Below, in pieces: positions 54,234 through 54,533 of a stretch of 58,790 bases of DNA. This stretch comes from Escherichia phage FS2B. Location of the stretch: the sequence record MW929182; one strand, written 5' to 3'. The first letter of the stretch is position 1; each line of letters opens with the position of its first letter. The position numbers were made by a program, and so were the translations under genes. The notes beneath the pieces are model-generated. The model was not told where the DNA came from. It made no database searches and saw nothing but the letters and a program-made list of their open reading frames with translations.

Positions 54234-54533
54234 TCACCACTCCTTACCAGTGGTAACTGTAGAGCCACCACACCACAACGCCGTATCAATCACAACATTG
54301 TCTGGAGTAGATTTCTCTTCGTTGATAGAAGGGTTAGCATTGGAGCAGGTTGCTCCGTTCCAGCGCATATCGATTTCACCAGAAGGAACCTTCTCACCTT
54401 TGTGCCAACGAGAAACACAAACACCTTCCACCGCTACTGCACACCATCCATCAGGACGGCTCTGTACGCAGCCTGTAAGGGCTATGCAGACAAGGAAGAT
54501 ACAGATTAGGGATATTACACCACCCCAACTCAT
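54234..54533 (-). CDS. lipoprotein (signal peptide with lipobox LTGC)
   Basis: N-terminal MSWGGVISLICIFLVCIALTGC fits a lipoprotein signal peptide; Cys-rich mature part. Confidence 0.5.
   Translation of the reverse strand: MSWGGVISLICIFLVCIALTGCVQSRPDGWCAVAVEGVCVSRWHKGEKVPSGEIDMRWNGATCSNANPSINEEKSTPDNVVIDTALWCGGSTVTTGKEW

What the first reader, a model, noticed from the sequence alone, without database searches (positions are those of the whole stretch)
54234..54533. Early lipoprotein adjacent to the tRNA, candidate superinfection-exclusion factor
A 99-aa lipoprotein with a clear signal peptide and lipobox (LTGC) is encoded in the early arm. Small early lipoproteins in lytic phages often block the phage receptor to prevent superinfection or inactivation of progeny, but this function is inferred from class only.
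Basis: inference. Interest (0 to 1): 0.35.

Follow-up and report, generated by a model that had tools for sequence, protein, structure and literature searches.

The report
Phage lipoprotein that likely blocks LptD
This small early gene of a phiEco32-like (Kuravirus) coliphage encodes a lipoprotein related to Rtp45, a phage protein shown to block the outer-membrane LPS exporter LptD against further infection. The same genome also carries a relative of the matching LptD-binding tail protein, which points to LptD as the so far unidentified cell-surface receptor of this phage group.

Summary
Window 54234-54533 (-) is a 99-aa ORF with a hydrophobic leader and lipobox LTGC, 19 nt downstream of tRNA-Arg(TCT), in the early cluster of a Kuravirus (ortholog: phiEco32 gp106).

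The "superinfection exclusion" reading is supported by homology rather than by class. The protein belongs to Pfam PF24052 (120 bits). It is 43% identical to Rtp45 in the region that aligns, residues 6-67 (E 2e-17). Rtp45 was solved by cryo-EM bound to the periplasmic side of LptDE (PDB 9RPS), where it displaces loop EL4 and blocks the phage's receptor-binding protein. Another member, mEp021 gp81, excludes its own phage when expressed. An AlphaFold model of the window protein finds Rtp45 as its only real PDB match (TM 0.74).

Unexpectedly, the window also encodes a full-length DUF6453 homolog of the LptD-binding proteins Rtp44/RBP-Oeko (8817-9851). It follows the tail needle, whose C-terminal part (residues 182-268) matches the GpJ tail-tip domain.

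Best explanation: an early LptD-directed exclusion factor, cognate to an LptD-targeting tail tip.

Caveats: there is no binding or plating data, the SU10 DUF6453 protein was not detected in virions, and the leader lacks Lys/Arg. It is a new member of a known kind, with a testable prediction about the receptor.

The parts
54234..54533 (-). Lipoprotein gene (99 aa; ortholog of phiEco32 gp106), an Rtp45-family (PF24052) candidate LptD-directed superinfection-exclusion factor
   Evidence: ORF. Pfam PF24052 120 bits. 43% identity / E 2e-17 to Rtp45. Family profile against PDB 9rps_D E 1e-23. AF2 model to Foldseek 9rps_D prob 1.00, TMt 0.74.
54468..54533 (-). Signal peptide (residues 1-21) with lipobox L19-T20-G21-C22. 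Cys22 is the predicted lipidated N-terminus. The n-region has no Lys/Arg.
   Evidence: Sequence read directly. The signal region is almost unchanged in all kuravirus orthologs recovered: 19 of 22 residues, including the whole lipobox, are identical.
54348..54467 (-). Conserved core (residues 23-62): RPDGWC31-x7-C39 disulfide hairpin and W43..G46..VPSGEIDMR..G60. It corresponds to the Rtp45 region that forms a beta-sheet with LptD and carries the Cys30-Cys38 disulfide.
   Evidence: Alignments. Rtp45 structure description in PMC12685063. dN/dS about 0.13.
54270..54347 (-). Insert bounded by Cys63 and Cys88 at the tip of the predicted long beta-hairpin. It is hypervariable among kuraviruses (inserts of roughly 6, 18, 24 and 33 residues between the two cysteines).
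   Evidence: Alignment. AF2 strands 52-65 / 86-98 with a low-confidence tip at residues 66-85.
54237..54269 (-). Conserved C-terminal strand GGSTVTTGKEW (family motif SGxxxVxGKEW)
54539..54544 (-). Shine-Dalgarno AGGAGG, 5 nt upstream of the ATG
   Evidence: Read from the sequence.
54553..54628 (-). tRNA-Arg (anticodon TCT), immediately upstream on the same strand. The tRNA-lipoprotein pair is conserved in phiEco32 and LAMP.
   Evidence: ARAGORN. Annotations.
8817..9851 (+). DUF6453 protein (344 aa; homolog of SU10_019). It is a full-length homolog of the LptD-binding receptor-binding proteins Rtp44 / RBP-Oeko and is the proposed cognate partner of the lipoprotein.
   Evidence: Pfam PF20051 87.6 bits (cut-off 25). 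HMM of four siphovirus RBPs E 4e-22 and tblastn with Rtp44 E 4e-15. PDB 9rpt_C E 1.7e-9 over residues 55-334. Alignment A4.
7781..8815 (+). Tail needle (SU10 gp18 homolog; the true start is probably near 7847). Residues 182-268, in the C-terminal half of the protein, match the GpJ tail-tip family (PF09327). This domain is the proposed docking site for the DUF6453 protein.
   Evidence: PDB 7z4b_EA E 1e-209. Pfam PF09327 93.7 bits.

Best explanation
The gene encodes an early-expressed outer-membrane lipoprotein of the Rtp45 family.

Proposed mechanism, inferred by homology: after Sec export, lipidation at Cys22 and Lol transport to the inner leaflet of the outer membrane, the roughly 8-kDa mature protein binds the periplasmic side of the LPS translocon LptDE. 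Its disulfide-stapled N-terminal hairpin (Cys31-Cys39) pairs with the LptD barrel. Its long beta-hairpin (residues about 52-98) pushes up through the LptD lumen and holds extracellular loop EL4 in a position that a phage receptor-binding protein cannot engage.

This would make the infected cell, and later its debris, refractory to particles that need LptD.

The same genome encodes, directly after the tail needle, a homolog of the LptD-binding proteins of small siphoviruses. The most economical reading is therefore that this kuravirus itself uses LptDE as its terminal receptor, after O-antigen binding by the long fibres, and that the lipoprotein is its cognate exclusion factor. In this phage the RBP and the exclusion gene are split: the RBP is in the late tail module and the lipoprotein is 45 kb away in the early cluster.

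Shown: gene reality, family membership, fold similarity, and presence of both module parts.

Inferred: LptD binding, exclusion, and use of LptD by the phage.
For: 1. Family membership.
- Pfam PF24052 at 120 bits.
- Pairwise 43% identity over 63 aa to Rtp45, E 2e-17.
- The family profile finds PDB 9rps_D (Rtp45) at E 1e-23, and nothing else is significant.

2. Structure.
- An AF2 model built with a 31-sequence alignment has pLDDT 76.8.
- Its only real PDB match is 9rps_D: probability 1.00, TM 0.74 on the target, with the next hit at E 2.5.
- Cys31 and Cys39 align with the Rtp45 Cys30-Cys38 disulfide and are invariant in the family.

3. Function of relatives.
- Rtp45 binds LptDE on the periplasmic side, displaces EL4 by up to 20 A and blocks the RBP (PMC12685063).
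- mEp021 gp81 (protein P0038) excludes mEp021 and mEp515 when expressed (PMC11893012).

4. Partner gene.
- Window 8817-9851 is a DUF6453 protein (87.6 bits).
- It is homologous over its full length to Rtp44, RBP-Oeko and mEp021 gp80.
- It sits directly after a tail needle that contains the GpJ tip domain.

5. Co-occurrence of the two families.
- Both are present in kuraviruses, Dhillonvirus, Rtp/T1-like phages, the mEp021 group and Klebsiella Webervirus.
- They are adjacent in Rtp, Bas84, Sfin-1 and mEp021.
- They are split by 9.6 kb in Webervirus RCIP0010, with J followed by the RBP on the same strand and the lipoprotein in the replication module, much as in this window.
- Both are absent from phage 7-11, a relative with the same genome architecture.

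6. Selection and retention.
- dN/dS is about 0.13.
- The gene is kept in the reduced genome of LAMP.

7. The terminal receptor of kuraviruses is not established. Only O-antigen dependence has been shown (PMC11990801).
Against: - There is no experiment on any kuravirus ortholog.
- The DUF6453 protein is only 22-27% identical to proven LptD binders. That is below the >30% identity used to define receptor-specific families (bioRxiv 2026), so its specificity could differ.
- SU10 gp19, the DUF6453 homolog, was not detected in virions by LC-MS/MS or by gel-band MS, although gp16-18 and gp20-24 were. It is not in the SU10 virion model.
- Published models assign surface contact to the short fibres and the needle, not to an outer-membrane protein.
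- Spontaneous ES17-resistant mutants lost O-antigen; lptD mutations were not reported.
- SU10 imaging shows many particles delivering DNA into one cell, so exclusion is at least not immediate.
- The signal peptide lacks the usual positive n-region.
- mEp021, which carries the same module, was reported as OmpA-dependent.
Confidence: 0.6

Rival explanations
1. Weapon against competitors only. The lipoprotein blocks LptD to shut out LptD-dependent siphoviruses that share the host. The kuravirus itself does not need LptD, and its DUF6453 protein has another role.
For: - The gene is unlinked from any RBP gene and lies among early host-takeover genes.
- The lipoprotein loop type does not track the DUF6453 clade. 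EcK-vB has 99% lipoprotein identity and 61% DUF6453 identity, CHD5UKE1 has 74% and 61%, and NC-B has 58% and 63%.
- SU10 gp19 was not found in virions.
Against: - Both module parts are kept together across the kuravirus records examined (phiEco32, ECBP2, LAMP, FH3, NC-B, EcK-vB and CHD5UKE1 carry both). Similar numbers of kuravirus-like records carry each family. Both are absent from 7-11.
- The DUF6453 gene sits exactly where siphoviruses place the tip RBP, after a J-tip domain protein.
- Known exclusion lipoproteins (Llp, Cor, Rtp45) are cognate to their own phage's receptor.
Confidence: 0.15
2. Same fold, different target. The kuravirus lipoprotein and DUF6453 protein have diverged to recognise another outer-membrane protein. 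The lipoprotein is still a receptor-blocking exclusion factor, but not for LptD.
For: - DUF6453 identity to LptD binders is only 22-27%.
- The kuravirus lipoprotein carries a 24-aa insert, bounded by Cys63 and Cys88, that Rtp45 lacks.
- mEp021, with a module of this family, was reported as OmpA-dependent.
Against: - The lipoprotein core that contacts LptD in Rtp45 is the best conserved part (RPDGWCA..G.C..W..G..VP.GE.D.R..G).
- mEp021 gp80 is 64% identical to Rtp44, and infection of the ompA mutant was not abolished. LptD remains likely there too.
- Every DUF6453 RBP with a demonstrated or assigned receptor in the sources read is LptD-linked.
Confidence: 0.12
3. Host-takeover effector. The lipoprotein binds LptDE mainly to alter LPS/O-antigen export or outer-membrane integrity during infection, for example to help lysis or stop display of new O-antigen. 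Any exclusion is a side effect.
For: - In Rtp45 the hairpin occupies the LptD lumen.
- Kuravirus adsorption depends on O-antigen, which LptD exports.
- The gene lies in the early region.
Against: - Family members are carried by temperate phages and prophages (mEp021, E. coli chromosomes). Rtp45 was co-expressed with LptDE without reported toxicity. This argues against a strong block of an essential exporter.
- LPS already on the surface would remain during a short latent period.
Confidence: 0.07
4. Lysis protein. The lipoprotein is the o-spanin (Rz1-type) of the phage.
For: It is a small lipoprotein with several cysteines.
Against: - The o-spanin is elsewhere: window 23211-23468 (-) is 96.5% identical to the curated NJ01 o-spanin. 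phiEco32 has an overlapped spanin pair at 35272-35768 of its genome.
- No i-spanin gene is adjacent, and the gene lies in the early cluster.
Confidence: 0.01

Closest known systems
Rtp45, superinfection-exclusion lipoprotein of coliphage Rtp (PDB 9RPS chain D; Dunbar et al., PNAS 2025, PMC12685063)
   Same: - Same Pfam family (PF24052).
- 43% identity in the region that aligns (residues 6-67; E 2e-17).
- Same lipobox architecture, the same invariant Cys pair (disulfide) and the same C-terminal GKEW motif.
- The AF2 model superposes on the experimental structure (TM 0.74).
- A DUF6453 RBP homolog is present in the same genome.
   Different: - The host phage is a C3 podovirus, not a siphovirus.
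- The gene is 45 kb from the RBP gene, in the early cluster next to a tRNA, rather than in a two-gene cassette beside gpJ.
- It has a hypervariable insert, bounded by two cysteines 24 residues apart, at the hairpin tip.
- The signal n-region is uncharged.
- There is no experimental binding or exclusion data.
mEp021 gp81 (Lpp021), exclusion lipoprotein of the mEpimmI temperate phages (PMC11893012)
   Same: - Same Pfam family; 42% identity over 55 aa (E 7e-13).
- Exclusion of the cognate phage on plasmid expression has been demonstrated for this relative.
   Different: - It comes from a temperate siphovirus.
- Its gene is adjacent to the DUF6453 gene (gp80) between J and the side fibre.
- Its second Cys pair is at different positions.
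- That phage's receptor was reported as OmpA.
T5 Llp (blocks FhuA) and Cor of T1/phi80/N15 (blocks FhuA)
   Same: Same logic: a small early or moron-encoded outer-membrane lipoprotein binds the periplasmic face of the phage's own receptor and prevents RBP binding, which protects the infected cell and the progeny.
   Different: - There is no detectable sequence relationship. At E <= 1 only 9rps_D was significant in the PDB sequence search, and only PF24052 and phrog_4281 matched.
- Llp acts by long-range allostery on a TonB-dependent transporter. Rtp45 acts by physically displacing loops of LptD.
Klebsiella Webervirus lipoprotein / DUF6453 pair (e.g. RCIP0010, KingDDD)
   Same: Same split architecture: the DUF6453 gene directly follows the tip protein gene on the same strand, and the PF24052 lipoprotein gene is remote, in the early/replication module.
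   Different: - It is a siphovirus with a full-length GpJ.
- The lipoprotein has no Cys-bounded insert.
- It is uncharacterised experimentally.

Membership tests
Rtp45-type (Pfam PF24052) LptD-directed exclusion lipoproteins | Sequence match to the family model above the curated threshold | tested here: met
   PF24052 at 120.4 bits against a cut-off of 27, E 3e-35, covering profile positions 1-80 of 80. Family profile against Rtp45 chain 9rps_D E 1e-23.
Rtp45-type (Pfam PF24052) LptD-directed exclusion lipoproteins | Type II signal peptide with lipobox and lipidated Cys, sorted to the outer membrane | tested here: inconclusive
   Lipobox LTGC, Cys22, a 14-residue or longer hydrophobic core, and +2 Val (no Asp) are present. 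The n-region has no Lys/Arg, unlike all other members. No dedicated predictor or experiment was available.
Rtp45-type (Pfam PF24052) LptD-directed exclusion lipoproteins | Conserved disulfide pair (Rtp45 Cys30-Cys38) flanking the strand that pairs with LptD | tested here: met
   Cys31 and Cys39 align with Rtp45 Cys30 and Cys38 and are invariant in 31 family sequences.
Rtp45-type (Pfam PF24052) LptD-directed exclusion lipoproteins | Fold like the experimental Rtp45 structure, including the long beta-hairpin | tested here: met
   AF2 pLDDT 76.8, strands 52-65 / 86-98. Foldseek top hit 9rps_D with prob 1.00, TMt 0.74, rmsd 4.5 A; all other hits have E > 2. The model is only moderately confident, and the hairpin tip is poorly defined.
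Rtp45-type (Pfam PF24052) LptD-directed exclusion lipoproteins | A DUF6453 (Rtp44 / RBP-Oeko type) receptor-binding protein encoded in the same genome | tested here: met
   Window 8817-9851: PF20051 87.6 bits, 9rpt_C E 1.7e-9. Phage 7-11 lacks both families.
Rtp45-type (Pfam PF24052) LptD-directed exclusion lipoproteins | [quoted passage not shown] | tested here: not met
   The two genes are 45 kb apart on opposite strands. The same split occurs in Webervirus, so adjacency is typical of the family but not universal.
Rtp45-type (Pfam PF24052) LptD-directed exclusion lipoproteins | Binds the periplasmic face of LptDE and prevents RBP binding; confers exclusion when expressed | not testable with these tools
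   Needs co-purification or cryo-EM and plating or adsorption assays.
T5 Llp / T1-phi80 Cor receptor-blocking lipoproteins (FhuA) | Sequence or profile similarity to Llp or Cor | tested here: not met
   Only PF24052 and phrog_4281 matched. No PDB chain other than 9rps_D was significant at E <= 1. These are functional analogs only. Cor itself was not compared directly.
o-spanin (Rz1-type lysis lipoprotein) | Gene embedded in, overlapping or next to an i-spanin gene in the lysis cassette | tested here: not met
   The o-spanin is at 23211-23468 (-), 96.5% identical to the curated NJ01 o-spanin. Nothing spanin-like lies next to 54234-54533.

The most novel reading that the evidence does not exclude
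Kuraviruses (C3-morphotype podoviruses, subfamily Gordonclarkvirinae) have taken over the LptD-recognition and exclusion module of small siphoviruses. A single DUF6453 receptor-binding protein would ride on the GpJ-type tip of the tail needle and use the essential LPS translocon LptDE as the terminal receptor or entry trigger. The Rtp45-like lipoprotein, moved to the early genes and given an extended, disulfide-stapled, hypervariable hairpin tip, would close that door from the periplasm. This would name the so far unidentified terminal receptor of the group and add a missing component (gp19) to the SU10 virion model.
Probability: 0.45. Interest if true: 0.7.

Novelty: new member of a known kind. 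Interest (0 to 1): 0.5.

Why it matters
Kuraviruses are common, broad-host-range coliphages that are considered for therapy (ES17 and SU10 relatives). Only their O-antigen dependence is known. The step that triggers DNA release is assigned to the short fibres and the needle without an identified receptor.

If the lipoprotein and DUF6453 pair does what its siphovirus relatives do, the terminal receptor is LptDE. LptDE is an essential, conserved protein, which makes it attractive for phage steering and hard for the host to lose.

It would also show that receptor-recognition and exclusion modules move between siphoviruses and podoviruses. The two halves can be separated in the genome so that the exclusion factor is made early.

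In practice, cells or lysogens that express such lipoproteins would resist a whole set of LptD-dependent phages. That matters for cocktail design.

Tried and rejected
- **Shallow-alignment model.** AF2 with the 10-sequence kuravirus-only alignment gave pLDDT 42 and was unusable. It was replaced by a 31-sequence alignment.
- **Other libraries.** NCBIfam and PADLOC gave nothing. The PHROG hit is only 'unknown function'.
- **Spanin reading.** Rejected, because a separate spanin pair is present.
- **Similarity to T5 Llp.** None is detectable in the PDB sequence search.
- **Co-variation of the hypervariable loop with the DUF6453 clade.** No tracking was seen at the level of identity classes. The loop is therefore not explained by RBP co-evolution.
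- **Prior reports linking kuraviruses to LptD.** None were found in the held library.
- **Pavlova 2012 and Wietzorrek 2006.** Neither paper is held. The early class of gene 106 and the original Rtp45 discussion therefore rest on secondary sources and on my own recollection.
- **Scan of viral contigs with the broad family alignment.** With the kuravirus alignment it returned only five kuravirus genomes, which added nothing.

Full report
**1. What is in the sequence**

The window is most of the genome of a phiEco32-like podovirus (genus Kuravirus, subfamily Gordonclarkvirinae). A 3-kb stretch around the finding is 92-97% identical to many such phages.

The finding's coordinates are exact. A 99-aa ORF lies on the minus strand at 54234-54533, and an in-frame stop three codons above the ATG leaves no room for a longer version.

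- The product starts MSWGGVISLICIFLVCIALTGC|VQS, with a lipobox L-T-G-C and no Asp at +2.
- A strong AGGAGG precedes the ATG by 5 nt.
- tRNA-Arg(TCT) at 54553-54628 ends 19 nt upstream on the same strand.
- The ortholog in phiEco32 is gp106, annotated 'putative phage lipoprotein', in the same place after the tRNA.
- The pair is retained even in LAMP, a 68.5-kb kuravirus that has lost many neighbouring early genes.
- Against phiEco32, codons 23-62 give dN 0.067 and dS 0.511, so the gene is under purifying selection.

By the published temporal maps, the leftward cluster that contains it is the early class. I could not see expression data for the gene itself.

One oddity: the signal peptide has no Lys or Arg before the hydrophobic core. 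Every other family member I recovered starts MKK, MKR or similar. The kuravirus leader is almost invariant: 19 of 22 residues are identical in all orthologs, with conservative changes at positions 10, 14-15 and 17.

**2. It is not the spanin**

The curated phiEco32/NJ01 o-spanin (Kongari et al. 2018, supplement) maps to window 23211-23468 (-) at 96.5% identity. It is part of an overlapped spanin pair far from this gene.

**3. Family**

The protein matches Pfam PF24052 'Phage lipoprotein family' at 120 bits and PHROG 4281, of unknown function. It matches nothing in NCBIfam or PADLOC.

A word-indexed search found only kuravirus orthologs. An exhaustive profile search found 17 clusters, and a second profile search found 31.

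All are lipoproteins of 71-109 aa sharing three elements:
- a core G-x-C...G-x-C;
- W..G..VPSGEIDMRY.G;
- a C-terminal SGxxxVxGKEW.

The kuravirus proteins carry an extra segment closed by Cys63 and Cys88. It occurs in at least four length and sequence variants among kuraviruses, with roughly 6, 18, 24 or 33 residues between the two cysteines.

**4. Characterised relatives**

Two members have been studied.

(a) Protein P0038 is mEp021_81, as shown by its locus on MH706966. Arguijo-Hernandez and colleagues cloned this gene (gp81, 'Lpp021') and showed that its expression excludes mEp021 and mEp515 (PMC11893012). It is 42% identical to the window protein over 55 aa (E 7e-13).

(b) Rtp45 of phage Rtp is 43% identical over 63 aa (E 2e-17). 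The family profile hits its PDB chain 9rps_D at E 1e-23, with no other significant chain. Dunbar et al. (PNAS 2025, PMC12685063) solved LptDE(M)-Rtp45.
- The lipoprotein sits on the periplasmic side near LptD strands 5-8.
- It forms a beta-sheet with LptD through residues 30-35 and has a Cys30-Cys38 disulfide.
- It sends a long hairpin up the lumen. This displaces extracellular loop EL4 by up to 20 A, so the receptor-binding protein cannot bind.

Window Cys31 and Cys39 align with that disulfide and are invariant in the family.

An AF2 model from only the ten kuravirus sequences was useless (pLDDT 42). With 31 family sequences it reached pLDDT 76.8 and shows strands 31-35, 38-44, 47-50 and a long hairpin 52-65 / 86-98.

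Foldseek against the PDB returned 9rps_D as the only real hit: probability 1.00, TM 0.74 normalised on Rtp45, with the next hit at E 2.5. No template was used, so this is independent support.

The Cys63-Cys88 insert falls at the tip of the hairpin. If the hairpin is the one that enters the LptD lumen (inference), the kuravirus version reaches further up.

**5. Genomic context elsewhere**

In Rtp, Dhillonvirus Bas84, Tunavirus Sfin-1 and mEp021, the lipoprotein gene is the first gene of a two-gene cassette. The second gene encodes a DUF6453 protein of about 311-321 aa. The cassette sits beside the gpJ central-fibre gene.

This is the 'bona fide RBP locus' that Maffei et al. 2021 linked to LptD. 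The DUF6453 protein of Bas18 has been solved bound to the outer face of LptDE.

In Klebsiella Weberviruses the arrangement differs. The DUF6453 gene follows gpJ on the same strand, and the lipoprotein gene lies 9.6 kb away between a VRR-NUC/helicase gene and dam.

**6. The partner gene is in this window**

An HMM of four siphovirus DUF6453 proteins hits window 8817-9851 (+) at E 4e-22, and Rtp44 hits it by tblastn at E 4e-15.
- Pfam confirms DUF6453 at 87.6 bits against a cut-off of 25.
- phmmer against the PDB finds RBP-Oeko (9rpt_C) at E 1.7e-9 over residues 55-334.
- The alignment runs end to end at 22-27% identity.

The gene before it (7781-8815) is the SU10 gp18 tail needle (7z4b_EA, E 1e-209). 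Residues 182-268, in its C-terminal half, match PF09327, the tail-tip domain of GpJ proteins. The gene after it is the SLT transglycosylase ejection protein.

So the kuravirus tail module contains, in order, 'J-tip protein then DUF6453 protein', as in Webervirus. The Rtp45-like lipoprotein lies 45 kb away in the early cluster.

The two families have closely matching distributions in the phage collection: 326 records for DUF6453 and 383 for the lipoprotein. They cover the same groups, namely kuraviruses, Dhillonvirus, Rtp/T1-like phages, Webervirus and the mEp021 group. About 90 or more kuravirus-like records carry each.

Phage 7-11 shares the phiEco32 genome plan but has no needle/DUF6453 genes between the nozzle and the ejection proteins. 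It lacks both families.

**7. Best explanation**

The lipoprotein is an early-made, outer-membrane-anchored blocker of LptDE. It is cognate to an LptD-directed tail-tip protein of the same phage. I put this at about 0.6.

Shown:
- the gene is real and under purifying selection;
- it belongs to the Rtp45 family by sequence and by predicted fold;
- the genome carries the partner family.

Inferred:
- binding to LptD;
- exclusion;
- use of LptD by the phage.

**8. What speaks against it**

- SU10 gp19, the DUF6453 homolog by position and size (KM044272 20058-21089), was not among the 34 proteins found by LC-MS/MS of SU10 particles, although gp16-18 and gp20-24 were.
- It is also absent from the gel-band MS and the virion model of Siborova et al. 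2022. A single-copy 37-kDa protein could hide under the 38.5-kDa capsid band, but that explanation is special pleading until tested.
- Identity to proven LptD binders is below the 30% used to define receptor-specific families.
- Current models give surface recognition to long fibres (O-antigen) and short fibres.
- ES17-resistant mutants lost O-antigen. That is expected, because lptD is essential, but it is not positive evidence.
- mEp021 was reported as OmpA-dependent. However, infection of the ompA mutant was not abolished, and its gp80 is 64% identical to Rtp44.
- The lipoprotein's variable loop does not track the DUF6453 clade, so I have no explanation for its variability.

**9. Rivals**

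- A competitor-exclusion factor unrelated to the phage's own entry: 0.15.
- The same fold retargeted to another outer-membrane protein: 0.12.
- An effector of LPS export: 0.07.
- A spanin: 0.01.

**10. Novelty**

The gene is a new member of a known kind, the Rtp45 / PF24052 exclusion lipoproteins. phiEco32 gp106 has been called a putative lipoprotein since 2008.

I did not find any paper in the held literature that links kuraviruses, their gp19 or gp106 to LptD. A Pseudomonas N4-like podovirus that uses LptD has been reported (title), so a podovirus using LptD has precedent.

The value of the finding lies in a sharp, cheap test of the terminal receptor of a widespread phage group.

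Noticed in passing
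window 7781-9851 (+): The tail needle gene (SU10 gp18 homolog, with a GpJ tail-tip domain, PF09327) is directly followed by a DUF6453 gene homologous to the LptD-binding RBPs of small siphoviruses. The SU10 counterpart (gp19) is absent from published virion proteomes and from the virion model.
   Followed up: yes
window 54468-54533 (-): The kuravirus lipoprotein signal peptide is almost invariant (19 of 22 residues identical in all orthologs) and has no Lys/Arg in its n-region (MSWGGVISL...). All other family members begin MKK, MKR or similar. How efficiently it is exported is unknown.
   Followed up: partly
window 51931-57394 (-): At least eight small early ORFs (about 72-139 aa) around the lipoprotein gene form a family of distant paralogs: 51931-52179, 52176-52430, 53804-54025, 56054-56272, 56283-56501, 56498-56749, 56739-56972 and 56975-57394. 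They share a pattern L..L..G..F...(Y/W)....C.NL..G. Pairwise BLASTP E-values run from 3e-12 to 4e-4, linking them in a chain rather than all-against-all. Function unknown.
   Followed up: partly
L008 (mEp021, MH706966) 7742-8895; L002/L003: mEp021 carries an Rtp44/Rtp45-type cassette (gp80 is 64% identical to Rtp44). It was published as OmpA-dependent with residual infection of the ompA mutant. LptD may be an unrecognised essential co-receptor, as in Bas01 (NupG plus LptD).
   Followed up: partly
L016 (Klebsiella phage RCIP0010) 7708-8664 and 18263-18490; L012 (KingDDD) 5001-5228: Klebsiella Weberviruses also split the module. The DUF6453 gene follows gpJ on the same strand, and the PF24052 lipoprotein gene is 9.6 kb away between the helicase/VRR-NUC gene and dam. 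This suggests that LptD is also their terminal receptor.
   Followed up: partly
window 54553-54552 boundary (tRNA 3' end to the lipoprotein SD, 54545-54552): The tRNA-Arg has an encoded CCA end, and only 8 nt separate it from the lipoprotein's Shine-Dalgarno sequence. Processing of the tRNA out of the early transcript would leave the lipoprotein mRNA with a very short 5' leader.
   Followed up: no
window 55522-55545 (-): A strong terminator-like hairpin with a CUUCGG loop (AGAGGCTGCCTTCGGGCGGCCTTT followed by a T-run) lies about 1 kb upstream of the lipoprotein gene within the early cluster. The 7-11 paper discusses similar CUUCGG hairpins as RNA-stabilising elements.
   Followed up: no
window 7700-10700: The tail-tip region is 100% identical to Escherichia phage YW01 (PV018828.1, host given as E. 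coli K-12). Around the lipoprotein gene the best matches listed are only about 97% identical (other kuraviruses such as EcP-vB). This points to mosaicism between the late and early arms.
   Followed up: no
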